Shown piece by piece: positions 11,601 to 53,546 of a stretch of DNA of 64,000 nt. This DNA is from Trypanosoma brucei (Eukaryota). Numbering within the stretch: the first letter of the stretch is position 1; each line of letters starts with the position of its first letter. Below the pieces are notes generated by a model, which did not search any database, was not told the origin of the DNA, and saw only the letters and a program-made list of their open reading frames with translations. A program made the position numbers and the translations under genes. The DNA lies in NCBI GenBank assembly GCA_000002445.1, contig CH464491.1, forward strand, positions 2,784,001-2,848,000, read 5' to 3'.

Positions 11601-14600
11601 TTCAGAGCTTGGCTTTAGAGTGTGGAATTGCTGCTAAATATATCCATCGTCATACCGAAGCAAACAGGAAGGCATTGGAAACTCTGCGTCATGTATATGA
11701 CGGCGAATCGATATTCGAAGCTTGTAGTCACGCCAATGAAATGATGATGAAGTACCGTGAGTCTGAGGAAGACTTGCGGGCTCAACTACTGGACGTACGT
11801 TCGCAGTTGGAAGCATGTCGACACAGCATTGAGGAAAGCTTTAGTGTGTTCGCCGAGACGAGTACGTTGAATGATGCTAAAAAGGTTGAGTTTCTCCAAC
11901 AACAGTGTGCTGCCGCTGCGGCGGAATTAAGGCGTCTCAAAGATGAAGCGCGCGTAGCACAGGGCCTTCTTGCAAGCGCTGGGCACGATACCCATGACGG
12001 TGATATCTGCAGGAACCTCGCAGAGTTGTTGAAAGAAGAAGAAAAGCAGCGAGAGTGTGTGAACCTACTCCAGTCGGAGAAGAAATGCGCGCGAAAGCAG
12101 TTGCAAGAATTAGGGAACAAACTGAGAGCAACGGAAGAAATGAGGAACGCTGAACTAGAAGAGGTGCAAAACCGCAATGACACATTGCGCACACGCTTGG
12201 AGGAACAGTCGAGGCAAAACAATGAATGGTGTCAATTTGTTTCGACATGTGCCGGTGTTGTTGGATGCCCTGTGGAGAACATGCAGTTTGAAAAGAGCAA
12301 AAATAAGATACTTCAAACTTTAAGGAATGTAGCCTCTTCGCAATCCGTATGCGCTGAGGCGGGAATACTCTGCACAACCGCGCAGGAGGAACAACTGCAG
12401 TGCCATCGCGAGGGGGCGAACGCGGCCGTTGCGCGTCTGGACATGCCAGGTAGCGAAAGATACCGCTGCCAACTGCTAGAGTTTGTGGGAAGTGTCGAAG
12501 AAGTCCTTTCCGAGTTGTGTCCCGAGAAGTCTGAAAGCTTTCTAACAACCAAAGATGCTCCTTTGGAGCTCCGCGTGTGCCAGGCGGCTGGACAACTGTG
12601 TTCGGCAAAAGATACTGTGCAGGCGAACATACAAAAACTGGAGGCTGAAATTGCTTCTGCCAAGAAGAAAAACAAAGCTCAAAAAAGAGAGATGGAAGAT
12701 GCGAGGAAGGCCCTTCACAAGGAACTTGAGGTTGGCGGCCCGGCGGTTGCATCTTGTGCTCTTTCAACACTTACTGAAGGCATTCGAAAAAAACTCCGTG
12801 AGACGCTTGACGAAAATCGAAAACTGGGAACGGCCTTGGAGGAGCTACGCATCGATAATGCGCAACTGGAGAGGACTCTAAGGTGTGTGGAACAACAACT
12901 CTCTGAGACGCATACGCAACTACAGTGCATCACAGAGTCAAATGGTGAATGCAGAGGTCAAAATGCCACCCTGCAGGAGAGAGTTGACCCGCTTACTGAA
13001 CCTACTGAAGAGGCTTCCAGGAAGTTCAGGAGCCCAACTCAGTCACCCGACATTGATGCTGATGCCGCCGGCCTTGCGCAAGTTCACGAAGTTTGCTTCG
13101 GTAGGGGGCCGAGCATACAACACCGCAGTGAGGAACCACGGGAGTTTGAGGATAATCTAAGGGGTAACTGCCGCAGTGATGCCGCTGCTGTGATGGACGT
13201 AGGTGTAGCGCCGAAAGAACAGCGTTCACTCCTGGAGAGGCTGCAGCAGGTGACCAAGGAACGCGACGTCTTGACATTGGAATCGGAAAAACTCGTTGAA
13301 CGTGTGCAGAGTGTGCTTTATGAGCACTTGAACGTCCAGCAGGAATTACTTTCCTATTGTAGTAACGCAAATGAAAATGAGTTGGGGGAAAGCGACACAA
13401 CCGTGGGGGATATTGTCCAGCTTTGCGTTGAGCGTCTGGAGCACTACCTCTCTGAAACAAAGACGCTGAGGGAAGACGCTACCTCCGCAAAACTAGAAAG
13501 CGCACGGATGGCAGAAGAGGTGGCTGCACTACGGGGTCGCATCAAACACCTCCAGGACGACAACCACGTAGCGGAACGGGACTCACTCAGGCAAAATGCA
13601 GAATTCGAGAGTCTGTCACGTCAGCTGCAGGCGTTCTTTAACGATGCATTGCACATGGCAGTCAATGACCTGCGACTCCGCTTGCCACCTGTCACAGACA
13701 CAAGCGCCATCGGGGCACTCTACGGTCTCCAGTCTCTTTTCGACTGCATGCTAAGTAAATGTCGTGATTCTATTGCTTTCGATGAAGAAAAGCTAAATTG
13801 CAGACTGAACGAACTGAAAGGAAAGCATGCGAAGGATTTAAAGAGTTTGCATCGCGTTTTTTGCGCCCACGTGACGACGTACACGGACGACCCAAATGAC
13901 GAGGACTCTGCTCGTAGCGAAGGTGACGGCAGCAGTCCCGTCAATTTGCCCACCACCGACAGGCTCAGCGGAGGGCTCACACCAGAACATATTGTTGCTG
14001 CGGGAGACGCACTGCATCACGTGCACAGCAACGTTTGTCACATTGTATGGGCATGTATACGACATGCGGAGAGGGCGCCCCCTCCTTCATTACATACAAT
14101 GGGCCTACCCGCGCTAACAGCACTTTTAGGGGAGGTTGTCGTTGCCTCACTAGAGCGGGCGGAGCTGCTGCAAGGGGCGATGGTGGCTGGGTCGAGGGCA
14201 CTTGGAATTCTTCCAGTGGACCCTTCTTTAAACCAGCAGCACATGGAGGAATGGTTAGAATGTTTTACCTCAGAAATTCAGCGCGTTCAGCGAAGCGGTG
14301 AAGGTTGTGAGCTCTTGCTTAATCATTTAGAGATTCTCCTACAAGACCACGGGATCAGCGTCGGAGAGTTAGTCAGCAACAGCCGCAGCCAAAGCACACT
14401 CAGTAATGTTGGTCGACTTTCACAAGACAACCAACTTGGCTCACCCCGTGGTCCCAGCAGCAGCGTGGCGGTGCAGGATGTCATGGAGTTTCGCTCTCGT
14501 GCACTGCTCGGTGCGTTGCGCGACCTTATTGCACAATTTGAGCACCGCTACAGCACACTGACGTCCGAGTGGCAGGCACTAACAGATCAAAACAACCGGC

Positions 14601-14905
14601 TCAAGACTTCACAGCAGGCAAATGAGGAGGAGTTTGCACGCGTCCAGGAGCAAATGCAAGAGCTGCGGCATGCTGTAAGAAAGAAGGTTGAAGACGACCG
14701 CAAAGTGGAGCAGAGCTTACGTGATCTAGACAACCATCTCGACATGCAAGCAAGGGAGCTTGCCATGAAGTATCGTGCAGACCAAGAGGCGATTTCCAGG
14801 CAGTTTGCAGAGTTGCGTGGGTCGATTCGCAGGGTGGTAATACCAACACAAGAGCAGTTGGGGACGCCGTCTCCGAAATACGATTTCGTGTACCCTAGGG
14901 AATAA
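2654..14905 (+). CDS. Giant (4083 aa) coiled-coil repeat protein with an N-terminal globular region. Function unknown (cytoskeletal/flagellar-type giant protein by inference).
   Basis: This is a single uninterrupted 12.25-kb ORF. It is heptad-rich and Glu/Leu/Ala/Arg/Gln-rich. It contains about 4.4 near-identical 504-nt (168 aa) tandem units at nt 5546-7785 and an additional copy at 8578-8917. A second 462-nt repeat family lies at 7786-8570. An alternative start exists at 2681 (MDLYNS). Confidence 0.8.
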   Translation: MPFAPQGPVMDLYNSDEGDLLAIRSEMWMCADSEKMFKVGAGRGSKNIVSIENGHFFVYSTCGKQSRLIKDVPFHSVKRTASFVHDPKVSGASTVSGMQTAASSSSSSARSRDRRADVQVPPYYYLVLEFVRDKTVAESTNLAKREHVVLCTDNVQDFQYWQQFVGRYKCQLNRTQRPDESVVGGRRSGKGCVKSASHKECDDSGSDETNLDISTLTMKLDELQEWKRIAVDLADAVASSGAFPNCRRESLSNTEPNVEFSLKYVEKLLGELRKGVDCRLNTLNETQPPLPLVKDLKQQLELWNSLYDRTFSDDRTSEARGLFTKERQQVRVQRMENIIARERTEGCTKLSPVVSRRELVTSPEEWLQLPCLSTLSDADSAQNLVGGQREGGVLDGSAITLLSSSTVHADAPQEVWQRERNLSSANEGDMFAELRAAHRNLGLRSAPQHEFHQLEREKKNTERLAREGLRAYTEATIVLLQACYSEYVTVVECVLSAISGGVDTRGERRLVTAYAHLQTVAALDEARRAATAKQTLLENLVNELKDLQKTRDEEINALRKTFFRAKDGWESDLAVLQTKLRTLQNTMTQTTVVVPSDTVSFPPLERALCGGESSQELGRDSGEDKVSNTKIESVDKASYDECDEADSDESIRRWATRLTCSHGEQRGHIIAFRLERFFHWTLENVVPLCSGADTNCLLELVMRALSNHITLLQAAGEVFGTQDVKVSVDDNGVRESRDLCSSIRDLHTQHSTLKHLVGKYIALTENEEDSPVLRCDELEKQLQLHQFNTATLDHINSLLGTDNMTIKRRIQDMIQNEEQLLRIQEITGSKREICTVQHVRQKHEELRQMSELINRLDQSRMHQEKDLTTQNYEAFTQMNTSVKKAEEIIENTTKKYNELQLRIDFDKIEFNERLQIVHEYYNEHPQHYHNNKINKQIEELNEIIEKQQNLIGHQDKKEKKTERNSSTRAQCLQGIESALAVLGTTEAEMPLASAIQRAAEEAKVREDTLKQELDEAMGRETALEEQLRNLSQATIALQGTLYGGEMPTGNDGSALDVGHAAMSALERMREDAAKASGVMTAAMQEGEMSVPLLAKCHHMAETTNALRDSEKHYRALVGEDVKKDSGSTGTDDSSTRAQCLQGIESALAVLGTTEAEMPLASAIQRAAEEAKVREDTLKQELDEAMGRETALEEQLRNLSQATIALQGTLYGGEMPTGNDGSALDVGHAAMSALERMREDAAKASGVMTAAMQEGEMSVPLLAKCHHMAETTNALRDSEKHYRALVGEDVKKDSGSTGTDDSSTRAQCLQGIESALAVLGTTEAEMPLASAIQRAAEEAKVREDTLKQELDEAMGRETALEEQLRNLSQATIALQGTLYGGEMPTGNDGSALDVGHAAMSALERMREDAAKASGVMTAAMQEGEMSVPLLAKCHHMAETTNALRDSEKHYRALVGEDVKKDSGSTGTDDSSTRAQCLQGIESALAVLGTTEAEMPLASAIQRAAEEAKVREDTLKQELDEAMGRETALEEQLRNLSQATIALQGTLYGGEMPTGNDGSALDVGHAAMSALERMREDAAKASGVMTAAMQEGEMSVPLLAKCHHMAETTNALRDSEKHYRALVGEDVKKDSGSTGTDDSSTRAQCLQGIESALAVLGTTEAEMPLASAIQRAAEEAKVREDTLRQELDEAMGRETALEEQLRNLSQATIALQGTVCEDGADVSCDISTFDLCSVAFLSLGVIESAFECSISREVSLKKQVEEAHKREVALRSRLKSLASAATAVQSTLDGNASPERVSPKESSICSGDEVDGDDAFVDPFVAVQRAAEESKACRNALEEKLKEGAARIDAVEGRLLQLSRSIICLHSKLFDAEIGGNGEERAVELSELALVAADAIENAFECSISREVSLKKKVEEAHKREVALKTRLKCLVGAATAVQCTLEGGNYSCTADDPLSLSGCDMSASTNLDDSVLGSVAAIQRAAEEAKVREDTLKQELDEAMGRETALEEQLRNLSQATIALQGTLYGGEMPTGNDGSALDVGHAAMSALERMREDAAKASGVMTAAMQEGEMSVPLLAKCHHMAETTNALNENDRELRMMSRNLSFQLSVAMLFLEEAEERLTHVVRYGWVPAKVVSAALCGWLVLCCAGDLFHCSSGDTISTLVDVRKELDDLRKLCGSQNAFDHGEVANVSRSECLLAIKRSVASLCADGAADPSLPLPTQLQKCVQSTVDEMYRLRDDADSALSENVRLKRDLQMVVGGCETSLEYLGSACGSSLCPALSPRSGVAAVSNLVVMTARIASEKLSSLRSVCEECNSVIERARRREERSHSRESSPASHRVEDGAEALLVERCKELVSELLVLRTDRRTSTAAIDQRLMESELMVTSVRNAIENLRTSLDIDVPIGTPALDLVRTSGSCGEAVEGAISEKRQVSATGPSLAELDTSIRTQLELCVLAVIRQLREKDRVISAAATLLGDALRSCSSAIRDEVTTDSLLAVASGTAHSLHSLFSELQSVRASLKQSQHHTEELRTRLEGGETTQLATLEAQTESVATAERLLNEALQRQVAASAQTARLQRTLMDFAGSIAASTLYADDAGDRVDKTGDVGASVSVVEERWLDGIVRHVAQRMQESESLKGKLKLVTSELESVRIRMTATEVAAREAELNAQSVEVGNLTRIAEATARVELLRNALSERSVELQKMHQRVERHEKQVETLKAEISNDARSFDNERCSLLRAQSTLLAENTLKQQQLDELRQKLWEGEKSLHEFLHNSRVVSLVDATNKIRSLSANAVCGVLMLDEMERRSEILQSYILSFPTQESTLLSVCACIASTLSEREVQRLPDSVHRLNQRVQKYKHLLGNPTKVPGPTRAVAVLALQKLAETVELAESVSSTSFVSNLIAAVADFRTRYLIANERIAKLEKEVNSGGTLMEMCDRRVWEMVKLLRQANSVGGLHSGSQEGPRGECQTDVVDFSVAQLDALQSLALECGIAAKYIHRHTEANRKALETLRHVYDGESIFEACSHANEMMMKYRESEEDLRAQLLDVRSQLEACRHSIEESFSVFAETSTLNDAKKVEFLQQQCAAAAAELRRLKDEARVAQGLLASAGHDTHDGDICRNLAELLKEEEKQRECVNLLQSEKKCARKQLQELGNKLRATEEMRNAELEEVQNRNDTLRTRLEEQSRQNNEWCQFVSTCAGVVGCPVENMQFEKSKNKILQTLRNVASSQSVCAEAGILCTTAQEEQLQCHREGANAAVARLDMPGSERYRCQLLEFVGSVEEVLSELCPEKSESFLTTKDAPLELRVCQAAGQLCSAKDTVQANIQKLEAEIASAKKKNKAQKREMEDARKALHKELEVGGPAVASCALSTLTEGIRKKLRETLDENRKLGTALEELRIDNAQLERTLRCVEQQLSETHTQLQCITESNGECRGQNATLQERVDPLTEPTEEASRKFRSPTQSPDIDADAAGLAQVHEVCFGRGPSIQHRSEEPREFEDNLRGNCRSDAAAVMDVGVAPKEQRSLLERLQQVTKERDVLTLESEKLVERVQSVLYEHLNVQQELLSYCSNANENELGESDTTVGDIVQLCVERLEHYLSETKTLREDATSAKLESARMAEEVAALRGRIKHLQDDNHVAERDSLRQNAEFESLSRQLQAFFNDALHMAVNDLRLRLPPVTDTSAIGALYGLQSLFDCMLSKCRDSIAFDEEKLNCRLNELKGKHAKDLKSLHRVFCAHVTTYTDDPNDEDSARSEGDGSSPVNLPTTDRLSGGLTPEHIVAAGDALHHVHSNVCHIVWACIRHAERAPPPSLHTMGLPALTALLGEVVVASLERAELLQGAMVAGSRALGILPVDPSLNQQHMEEWLECFTSEIQRVQRSGEGCELLLNHLEILLQDHGISVGELVSNSRSQSTLSNVGRLSQDNQLGSPRGPSSSVAVQDVMEFRSRALLGALRDLIAQFEHRYSTLTSEWQALTDQNNRLKTSQQANEEEFARVQEQMQELRHAVRKKVEDDRKVEQSLRDLDNHLDMQARELAMKYRADQEAISRQFAELRGSIRRVVIPTQEQLGTPSPKYDFVYPRE
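5546..7785 (+). repeat. In-frame tandem repeat array, 504-nt unit x ~4.4, >99% nucleotide identity between copies.
   Basis: The string tcatctacacgtgcccagtgcctacaagg recurs at 5546, 6050, 6554, 7058 and 7562, an exact 504-nt period. I saw only two differences between copies: a synonymous T/C at about 5940, and AAG to AGG (K to R) at about 7697 in the last unit. Confidence 0.95.
7786..8570 (+). repeat. Second, more divergent in-frame repeat family (about 462-nt unit, 2 copies) inside the giant ORF.
   Basis: The motif ESAFECSISREVSLKKQVEEAHKREVALRSRLKSLASAATAVQSTLDG is repeated as ENAFECSISREVSLKKKVEEAHKREVALKTRLKCLVGAATAVQCTLEGG. The anchor gcttttgagtgttcaatatctcgtgaagt occurs at about 7881 and about 8343. 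Confidence 0.85.
8578..8917 (+). repeat. Dispersed extra copy (about 340 nt) of the 504-nt repeat unit, separated from the main array by the second repeat family.
   Basis: AAIQRAAEEAKVREDTLKQELDEAMGRETALEEQLRNLSQATIALQGTLYGGEMPTGNDGSALDVGHAAMSALERMREDAAKASGVMTAAMQEGEMSVPLLAKCHHMAETTNAL is identical to the core of the unit at 5546-7785. Confidence 0.9.
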
Positions 14906-15717: not shown

Positions 15718-18700
15718 TTGATTCTACCGGTGCAAGTCACTATGTCGTCCCGCGATTTGAGGGGTCGGGCGTGTTCAAATTCAACTGCGGCTAGTGCTTC
15801 GCGACTGCTCTGTCTGCCATGGGAACTCGTTGAAGTTGAGCTTCCGAAAGAAATGGATGTTCCGGTAAGTGAATCACTATTTTCTGTTGGAAACGGACGT
15901 GTAACCGTCCGGGGATATACGGAGGAGTCACTCGTTGCGCCCCCGTATTCGAGGGGTACAAACTCTCACGATATAGCCATCCGTAGTCCTGTAGTTTCCT
16001 TGTACGGTGGTATTGGCAATGATGTCATCAAGGTGGGGAACAGGAGTTTGAGCAACAGTCATCTCCTTGGAAACCCATCTTCACCCGTTAGGTGTGACTC
16101 GTTACCCACCGAGGGGCACCCGACCGCCTCCAAAGAATGGAAGCCCCCTGAACGAACCCTGCGTGGGACTTACGTCAACGGGATCTGCGAGGAGCTTCTG
16201 TTAACCCATCATCAGCAGCAAAGGGCATTCACTGTTGGAACTTGTGCTCGTGAGTCATTTCTTGTATGTGCGCCGGATGCCTTTTGCATCGACGTTTTTG
16301 TCGGAGGTGAGCACGTGAATTCAGAAACAGGGATCATACTTTCGCACAGACGCACGTTAGATTATCACACGGGTGAGCTTCGTCGGCACCTGGTGTGGCA
16401 ATCCAGGAGTAATGGGCACGAGGTGACCATTGAGTCTTCAAGAATTGTTTCCCTAACACGGAGGAGCATCGCAGCAGTTAAATATTCTGTTAGTGCCAAG
16501 AACGTCTCCAATACGAATATCCGCATCGTATCTCGTACCATTGTTCCTTCGGGTGTGCGACAACACCTTAAGATTGAAAATGTTATGACTAGGCGCACTC
16601 TGCATGACGCTTCGACAGCGGTGCTTGTGCGCACACGAAATAGTTGCAAGCGGTTAGTGGTGGCTGAGTTTGAGGCTTGTCGTAGCACGCACTACGAGCT
16701 CATTAACACACAGAGTGTGCCGACGTTTTCAACTGTTACAAGTGCAGTAGGAGCACATGGTGCTAACACTCCACCGTGCGCCGTAGCAGCAGATGCGTCT
16801 TTAGCTGCAGGCCGGACACCATTGGCTTCGCCTAAGCCGATGGCACAACCACAGCCGCAACCAACACCATCCTTGACCTTCCTCGCACCGAAATGTTCTG
16901 AGATACGAAACGGCGCAGAAACCATCTACACCAGCGTAATACGTGAGTCTACACGGTTTGAGCTTACCAAATACATTGCCTTCCTAGTTGACGAGGATGC
17001 AGCACCGGAGGATATTTGTGACCTGGGAATGCACCGTGCTCGAGAAGCGGCTGCTGTCACCTACGAGGCCATCTGTCGCGAACAGTTGGACGTTTTGTCA
17101 AATTTCTGGGAGAGAGGGAATGTACATATCAAAGCCAGTGGTCCGTCGCTTGAAAGTGCGGTGAGATTTAACATGCTGCACCTTCTTATGTCGTCGGGAG
17201 GGTTACAAATGCAAAGTCACCCGTCGCGTGGTTTTATGAGTCAGCTGCAGGGAGGCATGCACCAGTGGGATGTAGACGCGTTTATCGTTCCTTTTTTCTC
17301 ACATGTGCGCCCCGAAGTCGCACGCGGGTTGTTGCAGTTTCGTATTGACACGCTGCCGCAAGCGAGAAGCCTTGCGGCGGACGTTGATCTTCCACGAGGT
17401 GCACTATACCCACAGAGGACTGTGAACGGTTTGGAAAGCAATCCTCCGCCGTTCTGCGCGGCCTTCCTGTTTACAAATGCGGTTGTTGCGTACGGTATGA
17501 AGCAGTATATTACTGCCACAAATGATTTCTCCATTCTACCGCAAGGTGGTGCTGATGTTCTCTTTTCTACTGCGCTCATTTGGCTTATATGGGGTACGTG
17601 GGATAAAGCAGAGTTCCACGTTAGATCTGTGGGGGGACCCGATGATTACAGCTGTCTCGGTGATAATAATTACTTTACAAATCTCATGGCAAAGTTTCAC
17701 ATGCAGTGGGCGGTGCAAATAGCCGCATCGATGCAAAGAGACTATCCTAACGAATGGGAAGGCGTGAAGGAGAGATGCCAACTAACTGATGATGACCTTG
17801 CAATGATGGACAAGGCCGCTGCAAAGGTGGTACTAGTTTTCGATGCCAAAAATCGTGTGCACCCTGTTGATCAGTTATTCATGAGGAAGAAAAAGTGGAA
17901 ATTTGATGAACTGAAGAAGAAGAAAAGTCTTCTATTTCGTACGTTTGACCCTTCTGTTGTTTACCGACATCAGGTATGTCGCATTCCCGACGTGGTTCTT
18001 GCCTCGCTTTTATTGCCGGAAAAGTGCACAAAAGACGAGGTGCGTGCCAACTACAATTTCTATGAGCCTATCACCACAAGCGATTGCTCGCTTACCTCGA
18101 TGATATTTAGTATCATTGCAATACAACTTGATATGTTGGACAAGGGAATGCACTATTTCCACCAGGCTCTCTTCAACGATATTGAAAATGCGCTCGGTAA
18201 TACAGCCCGCGGCATCCACTGCAGCTCCGCGGCGGGATCTTGGTGGTGTTTGACCGTTGGATTCGGTGGAATGAGGGTAGTTGATGACACACTGCACTTT
18301 AACCCTGTTCTCCCTGACGCGTGGGAGGAGTACCAGTTTTTTGTGCGCCATCACGGTTGCCTTATCAAGGTGCTTATTACTCGCAGGATGGTCACATATA
18401 CGGCTGTGGAGGGGTGCTTCGACAGGTGCGGTTTGCCGATTTATCATACGGAGATCAACACCATCCACCTGAAGGAAGGCATGTCTGAATCCGTGAGGCT
18501 TTACCGCGATGTTCGCGTATTTGACTTCGACTGTGTGGTGTTTAATCTTGACAGTTTGATCGAGGACCTGGAGGACCATCACTACCGCGCATGGAAGCAA
18601 ACCCTCGAGAAATACCTTCACGAAATGGGGCAAACTTCATTTGTGCTTACAGAGGACATATATCTTGCATACCTCAAGAATGGAAATTCGTTCACATCAT

Positions 18701-19341
18701 CTCAACGCCTTCTTGCGAAGAACGGCATTACAAACATCCCTCCTGGTTGCCCAGATGATACCGTTGAGACGGACACAGTATATGGGTTGCTGCAGCGCAA
18801 GCGGCATAACTTCCGCGTTCAGATTCGGGAGGAGGGGCTCAAAGTAAAAAAAGGGGCGCTGCACCTCATGGCGGAGCTCCGACAGAACGGCATTTCCATT
18901 GGTTGTGTGACAGACAGTAAAAGTGGTCAGTGGATGCTGCGAAGGGTGCCACAAGTTATGTGCCTAATCGACCGCTGCATTGATGGAAGTGATGGGGAAG
19001 TTCTTTCCCTCTGCTGGCGCCCGGAGGTGGACTACTTCTGCTCTCTGTGCAAACAACTCAATACCAGCTTCGAACGGACTATCGTTATTATGCGTGGGAT
19101 TGGGGGGTTCTCGAAAAGCGCACTGGAACAGTTCAAATTAGTTGTGGACGTGCAGCGCGATGCGGAGTATGTGCCGGGTGGAGTGCATCCTGTGAATGTG
19201 CCGTGCATGAGCGTGTTAACACTCGGCAAGTTGGATGAGTATGCCTCGAAAAGGAAATTAGTTGCCGTAGCGGGGGATGCCGATAGGCCCGCCACCGCAC
19301 CAAATAATATGGAGGGCGCTCCACCGGACCAGTTGGAATGA
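15718..19341 (+). CDS. Glycoside hydrolase family 65 (maltose/trehalose/kojibiose-phosphorylase-like) fused to a C-terminal HAD-superfamily (beta-phosphoglucomutase-like) domain.
   Basis: The N-terminal motif ESLFSVGNGRVTVRGYTEE resembles the GH65 N-domain signature ESLFxxxNGYLGxRG. The central motif LESAVRFNMLHLLMS resembles the GH65 catalytic-domain motif xIRFNLFHLLQ. The C-terminal 250 aa carry the HAD motif-I-like FDFDCVVFNLDSL (DxDG-type). An alternative start lies at 15742 (MSSRDL). Confidence 0.8.
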   Translation: MILPVQVTMSSRDLRGRACSNSTAASASRLLCLPWELVEVELPKEMDVPVSESLFSVGNGRVTVRGYTEESLVAPPYSRGTNSHDIAIRSPVVSLYGGIGNDVIKVGNRSLSNSHLLGNPSSPVRCDSLPTEGHPTASKEWKPPERTLRGTYVNGICEELLLTHHQQQRAFTVGTCARESFLVCAPDAFCIDVFVGGEHVNSETGIILSHRRTLDYHTGELRRHLVWQSRSNGHEVTIESSRIVSLTRRSIAAVKYSVSAKNVSNTNIRIVSRTIVPSGVRQHLKIENVMTRRTLHDASTAVLVRTRNSCKRLVVAEFEACRSTHYELINTQSVPTFSTVTSAVGAHGANTPPCAVAADASLAAGRTPLASPKPMAQPQPQPTPSLTFLAPKCSEIRNGAETIYTSVIRESTRFELTKYIAFLVDEDAAPEDICDLGMHRAREAAAVTYEAICREQLDVLSNFWERGNVHIKASGPSLESAVRFNMLHLLMSSGGLQMQSHPSRGFMSQLQGGMHQWDVDAFIVPFFSHVRPEVARGLLQFRIDTLPQARSLAADVDLPRGALYPQRTVNGLESNPPPFCAAFLFTNAVVAYGMKQYITATNDFSILPQGGADVLFSTALIWLIWGTWDKAEFHVRSVGGPDDYSCLGDNNYFTNLMAKFHMQWAVQIAASMQRDYPNEWEGVKERCQLTDDDLAMMDKAAAKVVLVFDAKNRVHPVDQLFMRKKKWKFDELKKKKSLLFRTFDPSVVYRHQVCRIPDVVLASLLLPEKCTKDEVRANYNFYEPITTSDCSLTSMIFSIIAIQLDMLDKGMHYFHQALFNDIENALGNTARGIHCSSAAGSWWCLTVGFGGMRVVDDTLHFNPVLPDAWEEYQFFVRHHGCLIKVLITRRMVTYTAVEGCFDRCGLPIYHTEINTIHLKEGMSESVRLYRDVRVFDFDCVVFNLDSLIEDLEDHHYRAWKQTLEKYLHEMGQTSFVLTEDIYLAYLKNGNSFTSSQRLLAKNGITNIPPGCPDDTVETDTVYGLLQRKRHNFRVQIREEGLKVKKGALHLMAELRQNGISIGCVTDSKSGQWMLRRVPQVMCLIDRCIDGSDGEVLSLCWRPEVDYFCSLCKQLNTSFERTIVIMRGIGGFSKSALEQFKLVVDVQRDAEYVPGGVHPVNVPCMSVLTLGKLDEYASKRKLVAVAGDADRPATAPNNMEGAPPDQLE

Positions 19342-20733
19342 GTGACCACAACCCTTCCAGCTACTTAAGCACGCGTAGGATGGGGGAAAACGAAAGCGGT
19401 TGCGCGTTTATTTTTTATATTTATTTGTTTGTGGAAACATATGTGCGGAACGGATAGGGATCTTTGATCATTTATGTTGCTAACATTGTGTAATAATAAG
19501 CAACCTAATATGTATACATGTGCATTTACTTGTTTGCATCCATCTAGTTGACGAGGGGAATGAGTCGTGATGCAAGATTGGCGAAAAGATGAAAGGATGT
19601 GAAGGGGGAAAATGGAAAAATGGGCGCCGAGTAGAGCCGCCTAGCGGGCGCGGCAACACCAAAAGGATATCGTGGCGTGCACTTCGCTGGCTGAATGTAC
19701 CGTTGAGACAGAAAGTGATGGTTCAGCTGATTCATTTCCTCCCTTATTATTTTTGTTTCATCAGTTAAGTAATGCGGTGGGGGCTGTGAGGAGGCTCCAG
19801 TTGTGAAAACCCGCTCGTTGCAGATGTGTTTATTGTTAGTACGTGTTGTGCCACCACAGCAAAGATTGTTATTATTTTGTTCTTTATTTGTTCAATCGCA
19901 CGTTGAAGTGCGGAGGGGAGAGATAATAAGATGGATTGAAGGAAATTTGTGATATTTGTTTCCAAAGGGCAAATAAGCAGGTGCGCTTGCATTTGTGTTA
20001 ATTAAAAAAGAGAAGAGTGAAACTCAGGTGGAAAGGAAAATGCAGGTCAAATATCGGTTGTAAATTTTTTAATTTTATTTTGTTTGCCTTTACGATTTTT
20101 TCTTTCTTTATGGCGACGGCGCTGTTCTTGGATGCAGCAGCCGCTGCAATGCCTTTCTTCTACAATTACTGTACATTTAAGCTATTTTTCAAAATCAGTC
20201 GTTTAGGAAGTGCGGCGAACCTTTCTGTGGTCAACTTCAGGCCATATGTGCAAAAAAGGGGGAAGGGAAGGGGGAAAAAAAAGACGAGGCATTTGCATGC
20301 GTATGGAAAGGAGTATGGAAGGGAAAGACAAAATATGAGAAGTAATAACAAAAAAGAAGCATACGGAGTCGGATTACTTGCTTCTTTTTTATGCCCGTTC
20401 TTCACGCATTTCCCGCGCTTGTTCACCTGCGCCAGCACGAACCATCACTTTGAATCTCATCGTGGGCTCTTCATGGAGTTTGCCATTTCTGCATCAATGC
20501 GTTATCTTAACTTTACCTTATGCGGGTATCATGGTAGAAAGGTAGCTGGATCAAAGCGTAGGGGGTACTATAATTAACTATAACAGTAGTAGTGTTTACT
20601 TTACAGCTTATTTCCCTTATCCTTTAAAGAAAAAAAAGCGCAAAAAGGGAAGATTATAAGTGTAGGAGGAAGGAGAGAAGGAGTTTGATTTAACAATCGC
20701 ATTTGCACTCGCAATAATTCTGCACGTTCCCCT

Positions 20734-21960
20734 ATGAAGAGGCAAAGAACTGCATCCAGGGGCCTATTGGCATCCGCGCGGAAAACCCTCTACCGCCAGC
20801 GGTGGTTGGTTGCTGCCGCGGCGGCTTTTCTGCTTGTCGGCTACTTGCTGCACGAAACCCAGGAGAATAGCCCTTTTGGTCCTCTAATTGATGCCGTTGC
20901 CGACGATGCGGCATTCCTTTCGGAAGCGCTAGATGCGGCAAAGGTGGACCAGAAGGAAGAAAACCTCGCGCACTTCAGCAGGGGTATGATACAAATTGGA
21001 AGTACATTGGAAAAGGTCGTTGGGGTTGCGGCGAGAAACAAGGCCGAACCAGCAGTTATCATGGAACCCTATATAAACCGTGCCGTTGCCATTTACCGGA
21101 GTGCGGTGGATTTTGCATTACAGATGCTGGATCCTCTGCTCAAACGGGAGGAACAAAAACAGAGGGAAAATCAGCCGATGTGGGGCGTTAAGGGCGCCGT
21201 TTCGTACGCGACCACAGTTGTCCTTCCTGAGTATTATTTTGCCATTGATGACACTACCTCACACAGCGCGACGCTGGTAAGGGGAATGCAGCTTCTTCTG
21301 CAGATATCAAATACGTTGCCGATCGCTGAAACTCCATCTCCACCCACCAACACTACTCCCAAGACTTTGGTTGATTGTAGACGCCACGGGACTGACTTGG
21401 AGTGGTTGCAATTTTGTGTGAGCAGTTTCAAGAATCGCACAACGTTAGCGATTCGTCGCGCCGCCGTACTAGAGGAACTCATCGCGCTGCACCCCGAGTA
21501 CGCACCGCTGCGCCTCCACTACGCAGCTGCCATAGCATTAGATCGCGATGTCATCCAAGCACACACCGTGGTTACCTTTATAACAGGTGAGATGGAGAAG
21601 TCAAGTAAACGTGCTTATCCAGATCCTCTCCACGCCGCTATGCTCCGCCTCTTAAAGGCGTTTGTACTGCCCTTCGACTCCTCCCCCACTCCACCAAGCC
21701 CTTCCGATTTGGACTCCGCAGCGCGCGAGGCATTAAAGGGTGTCGATGAAATTGGAAACTGCAGTAATCTCATTCGTCCTTTTGGTGCCGAGAGTAATAG
21801 CAGTTGGAATCGCCGTTTCCGTGGCGTCAAACGTCCAGATGTTATGGATAAGTGGCAGGCAAAACAACTTTTGAAAGCTATGAGGATGCTCAAGCAACGT
21901 CTGCAAGCAGGCAGCGAGGGCTCAGATATTCTTCCCGCTGGATTCGCTGAATGCAGCTGA
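20734..21960 (+). CDS. Hypothetical protein, predicted type-II/signal-anchor membrane protein.
   Basis: A 408-aa ORF in the same orientation as its neighbours. A basic N-terminus is followed by one hydrophobic segment (WLVAAAAAFLLVGYLL). I recognise no family. Confidence 0.45.
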   Translation: MKRQRTASRGLLASARKTLYRQRWLVAAAAAFLLVGYLLHETQENSPFGPLIDAVADDAAFLSEALDAAKVDQKEENLAHFSRGMIQIGSTLEKVVGVAARNKAEPAVIMEPYINRAVAIYRSAVDFALQMLDPLLKREEQKQRENQPMWGVKGAVSYATTVVLPEYYFAIDDTTSHSATLVRGMQLLLQISNTLPIAETPSPPTNTTPKTLVDCRRHGTDLEWLQFCVSSFKNRTTLAIRRAAVLEELIALHPEYAPLRLHYAAAIALDRDVIQAHTVVTFITGEMEKSSKRAYPDPLHAAMLRLLKAFVLPFDSSPTPPSPSDLDSAAREALKGVDEIGNCSNLIRPFGAESNSSWNRRFRGVKRPDVMDKWQAKQLLKAMRMLKQRLQAGSEGSDILPAGFAECS

Positions 21961-23001: not shown

Positions 23002-23434
23002 GTAGGCTCTGAGGAGGCGTCGGGTGCTCGTGTACGGAACGGCGTGGTGGGGTTGGCGGAGAACTGCTTCTAGCCAACAAGCTATCCGGTGTCTGTTGCT
23101 ATTGGGTGCCCTCTTTTATCACGTTTGTCGTGCTTCCGTTCGTATAGGTGTGTACATATATTTTTATGTGCGTGGGTGTATTATTTGTTGTTGGCGTTGT
23201 TCTTTCCTCCACATTTTCTGCCATTCGGGGTAAACCCCATGGGTGTGAAGCAAAGTTTGCGCTGGTCAAAATGTAACTTTTAACAGTTGGAGCTTTGGGC
23301 GAAAGCCACTTTCTCGGTGAGGTGGGCCGTCCACTTAAGTGTTTGTTTTCTCCCGTTTTTCCCTTAAAATCAACCCGTACGTGTTGCCCATAGCCTGTAA
23401 CGCAAACGCACGGAAGGGGGAAAGGTTATGCAAA

Positions 23435-26400
23435 ATGCGGCCCCAGGCTGATAGAAGCAGCTTCCTACACGCCCCAGTGACGGCCGTGTCTGTCAGTTCA
23501 TCGTGGTTTTGCCTCGCGGTTGGGCACCGTGTGCTGGCCTCATCGGTCGATGATGACATGGACCACGGCAGTGTATTTGTAGTTACAGAACTCCCTAATG
23601 GTGCGGTGATCACCGCCTTAGAGCAGCACAGAATGAGTTGCATTGCCACAAATGAACTCATCACTTCAGCTGTTGTAATCGGAAGTGCGGATCGCGTGTA
23701 CGCTGCTCCTCTGTATCGGAATGAGCTGCGTGAGGGAGCCCCCCCTGCAGCGAAGCCGCACAACAGTGTGTTGTTGCTGTCGCTCAATAATTTTGCGCGG
23801 GTCCTGTACATCCAAAGTCTTGGAGACGTTGCGGCCATTTTGGTGCTAACGACGCTCAACTCGGCACACGTAATCCCTGAACAGCACTTGATGGTTGGCT
23901 GGGACGCTTCTGCGGGGGTCGCAAGGAGGGAGGAGAGTCAAGGAATCGTGTTGAGACGCACCGTGAAAGGACTGGGAATTGCCTTAGCCGCATCGGCTCT
24001 GATGACTGCGGACAGATACAACATCCTGATTTTCACCGGTACGTACGCCGGGGGAGTTGCTGTGTGGAGCGTTCCTATAGCGAGCGCGGAGCAGCAGCTA
24101 AGAGGAATGGATGATGGTACTGAGTCACTTCCCGTCCTCTCGCGTATCAGTGCCCACAGCCCCGGTTGTGCTGTGTTTGCCGTGAAGGCAGTTGCGATAG
24201 GTGGTAGCGGAGAGCAGCGCAACGGATCTGCGGTCACTTCACGCATTTGCGTGGCCACTTGTAGCGATGATCGTACTGCCACAGTATATGTCTCACATAG
24301 CGATCATTCCGTCGGGGAAGACACGTGCACTGCGAGCCATTATCAGTTAACGGAAAAAACGAGGTGGGTTTGTTGCTGGCGCGGGAGCCGGGCGGCGCTC
24401 GCCCGCAGGCGCCTGTTTGACATATCCATTCTGCCGACGCGGACACATTCAAGAGTTGTTGTTGCTACAGGTGGTGAAGACGGTACTGTGAATGTCTTGT
24501 GCTTTAACCAGGGGGAACTAGAAGCGGCGGAAACACCGTTGAAGCCTCAAACTATTCATTGTCGTACCCACCAGCATGAGGGTAGCGGGGTGTACAAGGT
24601 AGCTCTAGTGGAGCACGCTGTGAGCAGCGGATATGTGACTGCCGTCGTCTCTTGTGGATTCGATGGGTGCGTTTATTACACAAGGCTCCAGCCGTCAGAG
24701 TTGCGAAAGGCAACACTTATCCCGTGCACCCCCATCAAGCAGAGATGCCATGTAAGGGGGCTGCATTGCGACGATAATGGAACGTTGTTGGCGTGCACGG
24801 AGGATGAGTTTATCATTATTCATTTTCACAAGGGGGACACATCCCCGCACGAGCAGCGTTTCCCCCTTCCTACAACTTGTTCGGGCAAAAAGGATGTACC
24901 GTCATGTCTTAGTGCCATCACCTCCTTGTCGCCTCCACTGGTCCCGTCGAACAATTTTGCACCAAAGCACATCGCACTTATAGGTACAACGGGGGGAGGC
25001 GTATATGGAGTTCTGTATGGCGCATGGTATTCAAATGCAGCAGAGAAGGAAAATGGAGGTAGAGCTCCGACTACTGTGGTGAAGTTGATGACATCATCCT
25101 CCAAGGTGCTCTTTGTTCGAGGATTACAGTATCAACAACACCTAGTCTTGGCTACTGTCCATGCGGGTGGTCAGCTTGTCGTCTCTGCGTTTGAGAATAT
25201 TTACGAACGTTCAACTGAATGGCTTTCTGCTGTCTGCGCGGGTACGCACACTACCGCCCTCACTCTGCGCCTCATGAAACGGACTTTACGACGAGAGTGT
25301 CTCTGTATACTCACTGGTGATGATGAAGGTAGCCTCTATATTCACACAGTGGAGCCGGGCGAGTCACAGGAAACTCAGCCGCTGGCGTGGCGGGACCGCC
25401 TCTTTCAGTCTCCGGTAGCGGCTGTTGACACCGAAGAGGTGGTCTTGCCAACGAGTAATTCTGAAACACGGGTCACGGTGTTATCGCATCAGGGTGAATG
25501 GCGAGCATTAGTTGTGGACAGCGATGATATTCTGAAAGTAGATATTCGGTCCATCTCCTGTCCACTGCTCCTGCCGTGGCGTGTCTCCACCGTTCTGGCC
25601 TGGAGCAATGGTGCGGCAAAGTGTGGAAAGGGCAGCAATGACCTGAGTTTCGCGGTGACATTGTTTGGTACAGATATCACCGTCTTTTCCAGGCGCTCGC
25701 AGATTAGTGGTTGGCACCCCATTGCCCAGTGTCATGAGGTGCGAGCCCCGCGGTTGCTAACAGCAGCCGTTTCGTCAGGTGTAGCAGCCGATGGAGCGGA
25801 GGGAAAAGGGCAGTACGCCTATGTGTGTCACTGTTCAAATGGAAGGGAAGGAGAATGGTGCGAGTACAACCCAGAAAACTCTTCGCGACTCTTGTACGGT
25901 GGTGTGGCAACGGGTCGGGATTACAACACAGTTATTGTTTTACCAGAGCCGGCCGCATGCATACTTTGTGGAGCGGAGCAATCCACAGTAAGTGTACTGA
26001 GCCTTCCGTCGAAGGCCACTAACGCCATGGAGACACCACAAACCCTCTCAGGACCGCATGAGTCCAATATACTCGGAATGTCGTATTGTAGCATTGCCGA
26101 TGGATCGGTGACTTGCGGTGAGGAAGTCCGGTTTGTAACCGTCGGCAGCCTCGCCACTGTTGCCGTTTGGGAGTGGTCGGTCCGCCACAGCTGGCGTGTA
26201 ATGGCCCACATGAATGTGAGGCAGCAGCGGGTGAGGGGCAACGGCGACTCCGCTGTTGACGGCCCTACAGCCACCACCAGCCAGTGTGTTCCGCGGTTTC
26301 TTTCAGTGTGCACAACAGCAAAAGACATCGTCGTTGGGGGCAGCGACGGTGCACTGAGGATATTTGGGTTCACCTCCAAGCTGATACTTCGACAAAAAGT

Positions 26401-53400: not shown

Positions 53401-53546
53401 AGAGGGGGAAACAAAAGGAAAGAAACCAACAAAAACAACAGGAAAACGCTGGAAGGCAAACTAACAGAGAGGCAACAGTAACAGTCAGATAAAAGAGGGG
53501 AAGGGAAAAGGAAAGTAGAAAGGAGGAATAACAAAAAAGGACAGGT
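50499..53546. repeat. About 3 kb AT-rich low-complexity intergenic region with multiple microsatellites.
   Basis: It contains poly(A)/poly(T) runs, (CAA)n and (AAT/ATT)n near 52047-52135, (GTTT/GTTTT)n at 53085-53148, and (GT)n near 53345. No ORF in it has a credible composition. Confidence 0.8.
53085..53148. repeat. (GTTT)n/(GTTTT)n microsatellite.
   Basis: gtttgttcgtttgtttgtttgtttgtttttgtttttgtttttgttttttttt upstream of CK2 beta. Confidence 0.9.

What the first reader, a model, noticed from the sequence alone, without database searches (positions are those of the whole stretch)
15718..19341. Rosetta-stone fusion: GH65 disaccharide phosphorylase domain fused to a HAD/beta-phosphoglucomutase-like domain in one 1207-aa polypeptide
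In bacteria, GH65 maltose/trehalose/kojibiose phosphorylases release beta-glucose-1-phosphate, which a separately encoded HAD-family beta-phosphoglucomutase converts to glucose-6-phosphate. The two are classically adjacent genes. Here the N-terminal ~950 aa carry GH65 N- and catalytic-domain signatures (ESLFSVGNGRVTVRGYTEE; VRFNMLHLL). The C-terminal ~250 aa carry a HAD motif-I-like FDFDCVVFNLDSL. That would put both steps in one chain, in a eukaryotic parasite whose genes otherwise lack bacterial-type sugar phosphorylases. It is a candidate horizontally acquired, subsequently fused catabolic module. The variant DxDC (Cys in place of the usual Gly or Thr) in HAD motif I, and whether the general acid of GH65 is conserved, would decide whether either half is active.
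Basis: partly seen in the sequence, partly recalled or inferred. Interest (0 to 1): 0.6.

Follow-up and report, generated by a model that had tools for sequence, protein, structure and literature searches.

The report
Catalytically degenerate GH65–β-phosphoglucomutase fusion protein
The trypanosome gene really does join a bacterial-type sugar phosphorylase to a beta-phosphoglucomutase-like domain, but this fusion is common in bacteria and other protists and the gene is already known, and in Trypanosoma brucei the residues that do the chemistry are replaced in both halves, so it is most likely a conserved non-catalytic relic, not a two-step enzyme.

Summary
The ORF is real: 15742..19341 (+), 1199 aa from the first ATG. 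It is T. brucei Tb927.11.10670. Pfam finds GH65 N, catalytic and C domains. The C-terminal 225 aa are a HAD domain closest to beta-phosphoglucomutase (Rv3400, 8H5S).

1. The fusion is not special. 68 of the 165 closest cluster representatives carry a beta-PGM domain, and 12 of 35 bacterial loci holding both halves are single ORFs. A diplonemid has the same architecture. The gene is already published as a horizontally acquired "trehalose phosphorylase" of all trypanosomatids.

2. "DFDC" is not HAD motif I. By alignment and by model, motif I is N935-L-D937, so the nucleophile Asp is Asn. The Mg-binding Asp170 equivalent is Arg1118. T16, G46, R49, K145 and E169 are also replaced.

3. The GH65 general acid Glu is Asp635 and varies D/G/N/E/M/I/T/H among orthologues. 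It is Glu in 137 of 137 outgroup representatives. T. brucei keeps only 5 of 11 canonical active-site residues.

All folded domains are nevertheless under purifying selection (dN/dS 0.09-0.18).

Best reading: a conserved double pseudoenzyme. Loss of activity is inferred, not assayed. Interest is modest.

The parts
15742..19341 (+). Coding sequence of the GH65-HAD fusion protein (1199 aa plus TGA). It is Tb927.11.10670 by 99% identity to the T. b. equiperdum 'glycosyl hydrolase'.
   Evidence: gene identifier from PMC8483307
15802..16992 (+). GH65 N-terminal beta-sandwich domain (aa 21-417), interrupted by two trypanosomatid-specific low-confidence insertions.
   Evidence: Pfam PF03636 at 7e-28; AF2 strands at 183-317 and 378-417
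15895..16269 (+). Insertion 1 (aa 52-176), predicted disordered. It is absent from the bacterial GH65 proteins in alignment A1.
   Evidence: alignment A1; pLDDT below 50
16699..16863 (+). Insertion 2 (aa 320-374), a low-complexity P/Q-rich stretch of variable length among orthologues.
   Evidence: alignment A1; pLDDT below 50; highest dN/dS, 0.48
17005..18264 (+). Helical linker plus (alpha/alpha)6-barrel domain, the former catalytic domain (aa 422-841).
   Evidence: Pfam PF03632 at 9e-68; Foldseek TM 0.81 to kojibiose phosphorylase 6W0P
17227..17271 (+). Loop carrying R496 (CsKP K330), Q503 (Y337), Q508 (F342), W509 (W343) and D510 (D344). The Tyr and the Phe platform are lost.
   Evidence: residue roles from table 2 of PMC11442529
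17644..17646 (+). Codon of Asp635, at the position of the GH65 general acid (LbMP E487, CsKP E483), inside an otherwise invariant G-P-D-x-Y.
17980..17985 (+). R747-I748 in place of the invariant Lys-Gln of subsite -1 (CsKP K596/Q597).
18085..18090 (+). C782-S783 in place of the phosphate-binding Ser-Ser (CsKP S631/S632).
18217..18219 (+). H826, the retained phosphate-site His (CsKP H675).
18274..18498 (+). GH65 C-terminal beta domain (aa 845-919).
   Evidence: Pfam PF03633 at 5e-13; AF2 strands
18520..19197 (+). HAD/beta-phosphoglucomutase-like domain (aa 927-1152). It has a Rossmannoid core plus a helical C1 cap with the Rv3400-type cap insertion.
18523..18534 (+). It is conserved in trypanosomatids but lies before strand beta1 and is not HAD motif I.
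18544..18552 (+). True HAD motif I, N935-L936-D937. The nucleophile Asp8 is replaced by Asn; the general acid/base Asp10 is kept.
   Evidence: residue roles from PMC9171722
18910..18924 (+). HAD motif II and distal phosphate loop, T1057-D-S1059-K1060-S1061 (beta-PGM S114, A115, S116, K117, N118). Largely retained.
19018..19020 (+). HAD motif III. Arg1093 replaces Lys145, as in all trypanosomatid orthologues.
19090..19095 (+). HAD motif IV. M1117-R1118 replace E169-D170, so the Mg2+ ligand is lost.
19339..19368 (+). TGA stop followed in frame by VTTTLPAT and TAA. T. b. equiperdum has CGA (Arg) here and reads through 9 more codons.

Best explanation
This is the T. brucei copy (Tb927.11.10670) of a gene that an ancestor of the kinetoplastids obtained from bacteria. 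The ancestral gene encoded an alpha-glucoside (trehalose-type) GH65 phosphorylase joined at its C-terminus to an Rv3400-type beta-phosphoglucomutase. Whether the acquisition dates to an earlier euglenozoan ancestor is not resolved. The ancestral protein would have cleaved a disaccharide with phosphate to beta-glucose-1-phosphate and then isomerised that to glucose-6-phosphate. In trypanosomatids both active sites have decayed. In T. brucei the GH65 general acid Glu is Asp, and 6 of 11 canonical active-site residues are replaced, including the Tyr, the Phe platform, the Lys-Gln of subsite -1 and the first phosphate-binding Ser. In the HAD half the phospho-accepting Asp is Asn and the Mg2+-binding Asp is Arg. 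The hinge Thr16 is Leu and the cap residues G46 and R49 are Asn and Ser. The folds are nevertheless kept under purifying selection. The protein therefore most likely works as a non-catalytic pseudoenzyme, through binding of a ligand or partner. The retained W509/D510/H826 and the S-K-S distal phosphate loop are the plausible remnants of a sugar or sugar-phosphate binding site. Shown here: homology, architecture, residue replacements, their lineage pattern, and selection. Inferred: loss of both activities and a binding or scaffolding role. The actual cellular role is unknown.
For: Architecture and homology.

GH65 active site. The 11 residues defined in PMC11442529 and PMC8626586 are kept 11/11 in 129 and 10/11 in 8 of 137 outgroup representatives. 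T. brucei keeps 5/11, other trypanosomatids 3-7/11, and the diplonemid Flectonema and an MMETSP protist 11/11. The general acid column reads D,G,D,N,E,E,E,M,M,I,T,H in orthologues between invariant Asp634 and Tyr636. E-to-Q at this residue abolishes activity in a characterised GH65, and loss of activity on mutating the catalytic acid is reported for several others. Among 60 columns at least 95% conserved in bacteria, trypanosomatids keep the bacterial residue at 74% of non-active-site columns but only 39% of active-site columns (Mann-Whitney p = 0.004).

HAD. 43 mostly bacterial fused beta-PGM domains keep D8, D10, T16, H20, G46, R49, S114 (as S/T), S116, N118, K145, E169 and D170 in at least 40 of 43. 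T. brucei has N, D, L, H, N, S, T, S, S, R, M, R at those positions (alignment). Residue roles are from PMC9171722. The same N935 and R1118 are present in an independent genome, T. b. equiperdum. T. vivax has N and N.

Selection. dN/dS for T. conorhini against T. rangeli is 0.165 overall, 0.14 for the barrel and 0.10 for the HAD. ORFs are intact, and the two loci examined (L001, L002) show the same neighbouring gene pattern.
Against: No activity was measured. Asp635 is chemically able to act as a general acid. The T. cruzi, T. rangeli and T. conorhini orthologues still have Glu there, plus HAD D8, D10 and D170, so some lineages may retain activity. Strong purifying selection on the barrel is equally what a working enzyme with a remodelled site would show. 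Arg for K330 is an allowed variant in phosphorylases, and Arg for HAD motif III Lys occurs in some active HADs (my own knowledge). The dN/dS estimate comes from a lineage that still has the Glu. Within T. brucei only 7 synonymous and 7 non-synonymous changes were available (omega about 0.3, noisy). Published genome papers treat the gene as a functional trehalose phosphorylase (PMC3916237, PMC8483307), though without assays.
Confidence: 0.6

Rival explanations
1. The GH65 half is still an enzyme with a remodelled active site and a different substrate or chemistry, for example using Asp635 or another carboxylate on a non-glucoside alpha-glycoside. The HAD half is a dead or regulatory appendage.
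For: W509, D510 and H826 are retained, and S782 and R496 are retained in most orthologues. D634 and Y636 are invariant. dN/dS of the barrel is 0.14. GH65 is known to have evolved hydrolase, phosphorylase and transferase chemistries by small active-site changes (PMC11442529).
Against: The acid position changes between close relatives: D, G, N, E in Trypanosoma and M, I, T, H elsewhere. This is incompatible with a conserved catalytic role at that site. No conserved Glu appears at the hydrolase general-base loop. The subsite -1 residues F342, K596 and Q597, conserved in all GH65 reaction types, are all replaced. The active-site loops are the low-confidence parts of the model.
Confidence: 0.22
2. 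It is a fully working bifunctional trehalose (or other alpha-glucobiose) phosphorylase plus beta-phosphoglucomutase. This is what the first reader and published genome papers assume. It would let the parasite use trehalose in the insect vector.
For: Domain architecture. Statements in PMC3916237 and PMC8483307. Intact-looking homologues in a diplonemid and in bacteria.
Against: Only 5/11 GH65 residues are canonical. The HAD nucleophile is Asn and the Mg ligand is Arg, and D170N in beta-PGM already loses the catalytic Mg (PMC9171722). A 2026 survey scores Trypanosoma and Leishmania as lacking trehalose breakdown pathways (PMC13237430).
Confidence: 0.08
3. It is a decaying relic, a unitary pseudogene in the making, with no function.
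For: Catalytic residues are lost in both halves. This window's allele carries a TGA that removes the last 9 conserved-looking residues relative to T. b. equiperdum. The within-T. brucei ratio is 7 non-synonymous to 7 synonymous changes.
Against: Full-length intact ORFs of about 1150-1270 aa in all full-length orthologues examined, with the same neighbouring gene pattern at the two loci checked. dN/dS is 0.09-0.18 in every folded domain. Structural Gly, Pro and core positions are kept at 74%.
Confidence: 0.05

Closest known systems
GH65 glycoside phosphorylases (kojibiose phosphorylase 6W0P/3WIQ, L. brevis maltose phosphorylase 1H54, trehalose phosphorylases)
   Same: Same four-region fold: N beta-sandwich, helical linker, (alpha/alpha)6 barrel, C beta-domain. 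phmmer gives 3e-56 to 1e-49 and Foldseek gives TM about 0.8. The phosphorylase-type site is partly recognisable (Arg for K330, Ser783, His826).
   Different: The general acid Glu is Asp. Y337, F342, K596, Q597 and S631 are replaced. There are two long disordered insertions and a C-terminal HAD domain.
Beta-phosphoglucomutase (M. tuberculosis Rv3400, 8H5S; L. lactis PgmB, 1LVH)
   Same: HAD core plus C1 helical cap. The Rv3400-type cap insertion (…P.G.P.D….T..GL..RK) is present. D10, H20, K45, S116 and K117 equivalents are kept.
   Different: D8N, T16L, G46N, R49S, N118S, K145R, E169M and D170R. The Pfam and NCBIfam scores are below the curated cutoffs.
Bacterial single-chain GH65-beta-PGM fusions (e.g. 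Dyella sp. WP_090449079.1, 1033 aa; Paenibacillus xerothermodurans locus L006; Gracilinema caldarium L030; metagenomic P0032)
   Same: Same domain order: GH65 N-m-C followed by beta-PGM. P0032 also has the Rv3400-type HAD.
   Different: The bacterial proteins keep all catalytic residues in both halves and lack the two insertions. Most carry the L. lactis-type HAD without the cap insertion.
Euglenozoan and protist fused homologues (Flectonema neradi EP01060_P029254; MMETSP A0A7S4LEI1)
   Same: Eukaryotic, with the same domain order and the same HAD subtype. They share the derived T16 to I/V and the loss of E169.
   Different: GH65 site is 11/11 intact, and HAD D8, D10, R49 and K145 are intact. 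Orthology with the trypanosomatid clade is not resolved (NJ bootstrap 58/200).
Eukaryotic GH65 hydrolases (PGGHG/ATHL1, fungal acid trehalase) and bacterial kojibiose hydrolase FjGH65A
   Same: Same family fold.
   Different: Much more distant (phmmer 4e-17 to 2e-15, Foldseek 3e-25 to 8e-22). No conserved general-base Glu in the corresponding loop. Not the origin of this gene.

Membership tests
GH65 (CAZy family, by sequence and fold) | Significant match to the GH65 N, central and C domain models, and the four-region fold | tested here: met
   Pfam PF03636, PF03632 and PF03633 all above gathering scores. Foldseek 7e-45 with TMt 0.81 to 6W0P.
GH65 active enzymes (all reaction types) | Catalytic general acid Glu (LbMP E487, CsKP E483), stated to be conserved in all GH65 enzymes | tested here: not met
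   Asp635 in T. brucei. The column is E in 137/137 outgroup representatives but D/G/N/E/M/I/T/H among orthologues. The rule is from PMC11442529 and PMC8626586.
GH65 active enzymes (all reaction types) | Subsite -1 residues F342, W343, D344, K596, Q597 (CsKP numbering) | tested here: not met
   Q508, W509, D510, R747, I748: only 2 of 5 are kept.
GH65 glycoside phosphorylases | Phosphate site: Lys/Arg (K330), Tyr337, Ser631-Ser632, His675 | tested here: not met
   R496 (allowed), Q503, C782-S783, H826. The Tyr and the first Ser are lost.
GH65 glycoside hydrolases (PGGHG, acid trehalase, FjGH65A type) | General base Glu (FjGH65A E616) in place of the phosphate site | tested here: inconclusive
   No Glu is conserved among orthologues in the loop before H826 (alignment A1). 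That loop was not aligned directly with a hydrolase. Overall similarity to the hydrolases is far weaker than to the phosphorylases.
HAD superfamily (fold) | Rossmannoid core with the motif I loop after strand 1, plus a C1 cap | tested here: met
   phmmer 3e-12 to 8H5S. Foldseek probability 1.0 to Rv3400 and beta-PGM. Secondary structure in the models. The Pfam scores are below gathering.
HAD phosphotransferases (catalytically active) | Motif I DxD with a nucleophilic first Asp | tested here: not met
   N935-L-D937. The first position is Asn also in T. b. equiperdum and T. vivax, Glu in three other trypanosomatids, and Asp in the T. cruzi group.
HAD phosphotransferases (catalytically active) | Motif II Ser/Thr and motif III Lys/Arg | tested here: met
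   T1057 and R1093.
HAD phosphotransferases (catalytically active) | Motif IV acidic residues binding Mg2+ (beta-PGM E169, D170) | tested here: not met
   M1117 and R1118. D170N already loses the catalytic Mg in beta-PGM (PMC9171722).
Beta-phosphoglucomutase (EC 5.4.2.6) | Specific residues: T16 hinge, H20, G46, R49 and S116/K117/N118 distal phosphate site | tested here: not met
   L943, H947, N980, S983, S1059, K1060, S1061. Four of seven are lost. The bacterial fused domains keep each of these residues except the K/R-variable position 117 in at least 40/43.
Beta-phosphoglucomutase (EC 5.4.2.6) | Interconversion of beta-G1P and G6P | not testable with these tools
   Needs an enzyme assay.

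The most novel reading that the evidence does not exclude
A horizontally acquired two-enzyme catabolic module was converted, at the base of the trypanosomatids, into a double pseudoenzyme. It has been kept under purifying selection across the trypanosomatid species sampled because it acquired a new non-catalytic job, for instance sensing or sequestering a sugar or sugar phosphate, or scaffolding a partner. On this reading the published 'trehalose phosphorylase' of trypanosomes does not exist as an enzyme.
Probability: 0.45. Interest if true: 0.55.

Novelty: new variant of a known kind. Interest (0 to 1): 0.38.

Why it matters
Genome papers on Phytomonas and on T. brucei in the tsetse fly use this gene to argue that trypanosomatids can feed on insect trehalose. 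A 2026 survey scores them as lacking any trehalose pathway. The residue-level analysis reconciles the two views: the gene is there, but its chemistry-bearing residues are gone in T. brucei. That changes metabolic reconstructions. It removes a supposed bacterial-type drug target. It also supplies a clean natural series, from intact in a diplonemid to progressively decayed in trypanosomatids, for studying how a fused two-step enzyme becomes a conserved pseudoenzyme.

Tried and rejected

2. PGGHG/ATHL1-type eukaryotic origin. Rejected, because similarity to the phosphorylases is far stronger.

3. Eukaryote-specific fusion. Rejected. Of the 165 top representatives, 56 have a C-terminal and 12 an N-terminal beta-PGM domain. 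12 of 35 bacterial loci with both halves are single ORFs.

4. Decaying pseudogene. Rejected by dN/dS.

5. A second word-index homologue search with an alignment returned only sequences already in hand and no Leishmania orthologue. The Leishmania orthologues (LmjF.36.5240 and others) were identified only from a supplement and their sequences were not examined.

6. Donor and sister group. The NJ tree with 200 bootstraps supports the 21-member eukaryote-type clade (200/200). It does not resolve its neighbour; clade plus the diplonemid pair gets 58/200. No maximum-likelihood program was available.

7. The HAD-only AF2 model was confident only for aa 931-1080 (mean pLDDT 61). The full-length model has mean pLDDT 68.7 with weak active-site loops, so no side-chain geometry was interpreted.

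8. Literature searches for Tb927.11.10670 and its Leishmania and T. cruzi orthologue identifiers found no functional, localisation or knockout data.

9. Tandem Repeats Finder missed the upstream 504-nt repeats because its period limit is 500. The repeat finder found them.

10. The five neighbouring ORFs scanned against Pfam showed no sugar-metabolism domain, so genomic context gives no functional hint.

Full report
**Observation**

The window is a stretch of a Trypanosoma brucei chromosome. All ORFs of at least 250 aa but two lie on the + strand, and those two overlap larger + strand ORFs. The target protein is 99% identical to a T. b. equiperdum 'glycosyl hydrolase'. The ORF reported at 15718..19341 exists. 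Its first eight codons depend on an in-frame TTG. The first ATG is at 15742 and gives 1199 aa, the same start as the T. b. equiperdum protein.

Pfam finds Glyco_hydro_65N (aa 41-310, 7e-28), Glyco_hydro_65m (aa 475-834, 9e-68) and Glyco_hydro_65C (aa 844-891, 5e-13). All three are above the gathering scores. It also gives weak HAD hits at aa 930-1116: Hydrolase at 3e-4 and HAD_2 at 0.01, both below gathering. NCBIfam places the tail in the beta-phosphoglucomutase family, TIGR02009 at 2.6e-14, below its cutoff.

Against solved structures, the N-terminal 933 aa match kojibiose and maltose phosphorylases (3e-56 to 1e-49). They match PGGHG only at about 6e-16. The C-terminal 283 aa match beta-PGM Rv3400 (8H5S, 3e-12) and L. 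lactis beta-PGM (4e-7).

AlphaFold2 models agree. [quoted passage not shown] Foldseek gives 6W0P kojibiose phosphorylase at 7e-45 (TMt 0.81), against 6e-23 for PGGHG. The HAD model hits Rv3400 first, then among others L. lactis beta-PGM. The two-domain architecture is therefore real.

**Identity and prior knowledge**

The gene is Tb927.11.10670. Naguleswaran et al. call it a putative trehalose phosphorylase (PMC8483307). Porcel et al. describe a bacterial-type alpha,alpha-trehalose phosphorylase, acquired by HGT and present in all sequenced trypanosomatids (PMC3916237). The gene is in the lateral-transfer gene set of Vikeved et al., with orthologues LmjF.36.5240 and TcCLB.504703.10 (PMC4711719).

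Conversely, a 2026 survey scores Trypanosoma and Leishmania as lacking trehalose breakdown pathways (PMC13237430). I found no functional, localisation or knockout data.

**The fusion is common**

An exhaustive HMMER search of 1.84 billion cluster representatives gave 4903 hits. Of the 165 sequences analysed, 56 carry a C-terminal and 12 an N-terminal beta-PGM-like domain.

- Named C-terminal examples are Dyella (WP_090449079.1, 1033 aa), a Sphaerochaetaceae MAG (973 aa) and Paenibacillus (1013 aa).
- A named N-terminal example is Trueperaceae (1036 aa).

A scan of one genome per bacterial species found 35 loci where both halves match in one orientation. Twelve of these are single stop-to-stop ORFs, including Paenibacillus xerothermodurans, Gracilinema caldarium, Massilia, Chloroflexota, Spirochaetota, Cellulomonas, Cellulosimicrobium and Marisediminicola. 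The other 23 are the classical adjacent gene pair.

Eukaryotic fused homologues also exist, in the diplonemid Flectonema neradi and in an MMETSP protist.

The T. brucei HAD is of the Rv3400 subtype, with a roughly 20-aa cap insertion. Most bacterial C-terminal fusions have the shorter L. lactis type. One metagenomic protein, P0032, has the same domain order, the Rv3400-type HAD and intact residues. It sits on a contig with an overlapping stop and start, which looks bacterial. 'Fused after transfer' is thus not required and not supported, though it is not excluded.

**Phylogeny**

In an NJ tree of the catalytic domain, T. brucei falls in a 21-member clade. All members but two (P0025 and P0033, in which no HAD domain was detected) have a C-terminal HAD, and the clade has bootstrap 200/200. 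It contains the trypanosomatids (200/200) and several unnamed sequences. The one unnamed member whose contig I examined (P0029) has eukaryotic neighbours: PTPA genes and an EGF/NHL giant. Its nearest neighbour is unresolved; clade plus the diplonemid pair gets 58/200.

Two of the loci examined, L001 and L002, show the same gene pattern as the window: a large upstream gene (in L001) and a gene of about 410-440 aa downstream.

**GH65 active site**

The 2024 GH65 review lists the residues common to the family, in CsKP numbering: F342, W343, D344, the catalytic acid E483 ('conserved in all GH65 enzymes'), K596 and Q597. For phosphorylases it adds K330 (Lys or Arg), Y337, S631, S632 and H675 (PMC11442529). 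E-to-Q at the acid abolishes activity (PMC8626586).

In my alignment, 129 of 137 outgroup representatives have 11/11 of these residues and 8 have 10/11. T. brucei has R496, Q503, Q508, W509, D510, D635, R747, I748, C782, S783 and H826, which is 5/11. Other trypanosomatids score 3-7/11. Flectonema and the MMETSP protist score 11/11.

The acid column, flanked by invariant D634 and Y636, reads as follows:

| Lineage | Residue at the acid position |
|---|---|
| T. brucei, T. theileri, T. congolense | D |
| T. vivax | G |
| T. grayi | N |
| T. cruzi, T. rangeli, T. conorhini | E |
| Two unnamed trypanosomatids | M |
| Angomonas | I |
| Strigomonas | T |
| A eukprot sequence | H |

Among the 60 columns at least 95% conserved in bacteria, trypanosomatids keep the bacterial residue at 74% of the 50 non-active-site columns. 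They keep it at only 39% of the 10 active-site columns (Mann-Whitney p = 0.004). The decay is therefore aimed at the active site and not at the fold.

**HAD active site**

Predicted strand beta1 is aa 931-935 (CVVFN). Motif I is therefore N935-L-D937: the phospho-accepting Asp8 is Asn, and the general acid/base Asp10 is kept.

| Beta-PGM residue | T. brucei equivalent |
|---|---|
| T16 | L943 |
| H20 | H947 |
| G46 | N980 |
| R49 | S983 |
| S114 | T1057 |
| S116 | S1059 |
| K117 | K1060 |
| N118 | S1061 |
| K145 | R1093 |
| E169 | M1117 |
| D170 | R1118 |

Forty-three mostly bacterial fused beta-PGM domains keep each of these residues except the K/R-variable position 117 in at least 40 of 43. 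Residue roles come from PMC9171722: D8 is the phosphorylated nucleophile, D10 the acid-base, T16 acts in domain closure, D170 is the Mg ligand, and R49, S116, K117 and N118 form the distal phosphate site.

The nucleophile is Asn in T. brucei, T. b. equiperdum and T. vivax. It is Glu in Angomonas, Strigomonas and one unnamed species, and Asp in the T. cruzi group. R49 and T16 are lost in all trypanosomatids.

**Selection**

Codon alignment of T. conorhini against T. rangeli gives dS 0.56, dN 0.093 and dN/dS 0.165.

| Region | dN/dS |
|---|---|
| N-domain | 0.18 |
| Barrel | 0.14 |
| C-domain | 0.09 |
| HAD | 0.10 |
| Two disordered insertions | 0.42 and 0.48 |

The protein is maintained, not drifting. 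Within T. brucei there are 7 synonymous and 7 non-synonymous differences (omega about 0.3, too few to interpret), plus a stop-codon difference.

**Interpretation**

The most economical account is as follows. An ancestral bifunctional phosphorylase/mutase of bacterial origin still looks intact in a diplonemid. It lost both catalytic centres stepwise in trypanosomatids while the folded domains were retained for a non-catalytic role (confidence about 0.6). Loss of activity and the new role are inferences.

- The main rival is a remodelled enzyme using different residues or a different substrate (about 0.22).
- The literature's working trehalose phosphorylase plus beta-PGM is unlikely for T. brucei (about 0.08).
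- A functionless relic is contradicted by dN/dS (about 0.05).

**Verdict**

The rarity of the fusion, fusion after transfer, the DxDC motif and a working two-step module do not. The gene and its HGT origin are already published, and the architecture is ordinary.

What seems new is that both halves are catalytically degenerate yet conserved. That is of moderate interest to trypanosome metabolism and to pseudoenzyme evolution (interest 0.38).

Noticed in passing
window 19339-19368: This window's allele ends at a TGA. T. b. equiperdum has CGA (Arg) there and reads on through RVTTTLPAT. That extension resembles the C-terminal ...[S/T]-L-x-T ending of most orthologues (SLVT, SLST, TLKT, TLET, SLAT). 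It is a nonsense polymorphism trimming a conserved-looking C-terminus.
   Followed up: partly
window 2654-14905 (+), repeats at 5544-8789: The upstream 4083-aa ORF contains a 504-nt (168-aa) tandem repeat: four copies matching at 100% over the 300-nt reference stretch, then copies at 87% and 78%. Tandem Repeats Finder missed it because the period exceeds 500. There is no Pfam match in the first 1000 aa.
   Followed up: partly
window 15718-15741: The bacterial-code ORF caller starts the gene at an in-frame TTG, 8 codons upstream of the first ATG. For a trypanosome the ATG at 15742 is the credible start.
   Followed up: yes
window 50001-54000: A marked A+T-rich dip (GC 0.37-0.39 against about 0.50 elsewhere). 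No ORF of at least 250 aa lies between 50498 and 53547, inside an otherwise one-directional gene array. Its nature was not examined.
   Followed up: no
window 30640-34275 (+): A 1211-aa SNF2-family helicase (SNF2-rel_dom 2e-86, Helicase_C 5e-24). Four other neighbouring ORFs (20734-21960, 23339-26983, 27453-30209, and the first 1000 aa of 2654-14905) have no Pfam match. The ORFs scanned show no link to sugar metabolism.
   Followed up: partly
protein P0165 (ENA metagenome contig, 63 kb): An 871-aa protein made of three and a half tandem beta-PGM-like HAD domains, each about 1e-24 to 1e-26 to the T. brucei HAD, with no GH65 part. It is an unusual tandem array of the same HAD subtype.
   Followed up: no
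proteins P0022 (2856 aa) and P0026 (1870 aa): Giant members of the same eukaryote-type clade, in which the HAD domain is split into pieces by long insertions. The GH65 acid Glu is kept, but Q597 is Ile and S631 is Val. Organism unknown.
   Followed up: no
proteins P0025 (L086), P0033 and P0019: A fast-evolving sister group of the Angomonas/Strigomonas-type orthologues. It has only 2-3 of 11 GH65 active-site residues, and even the phosphate-site His is Asp. In P0025 and P0033 no HAD domain is detectable. Organisms unknown (Logan SRA assemblies and eukprot).
   Followed up: partly
literature (PMC3916237, PMC8483307 against PMC13237430): Published statements conflict. Two papers invoke this gene as a trehalose phosphorylase that lets trypanosomatids use insect trehalose. 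[quoted passage not shown]
   Followed up: partly
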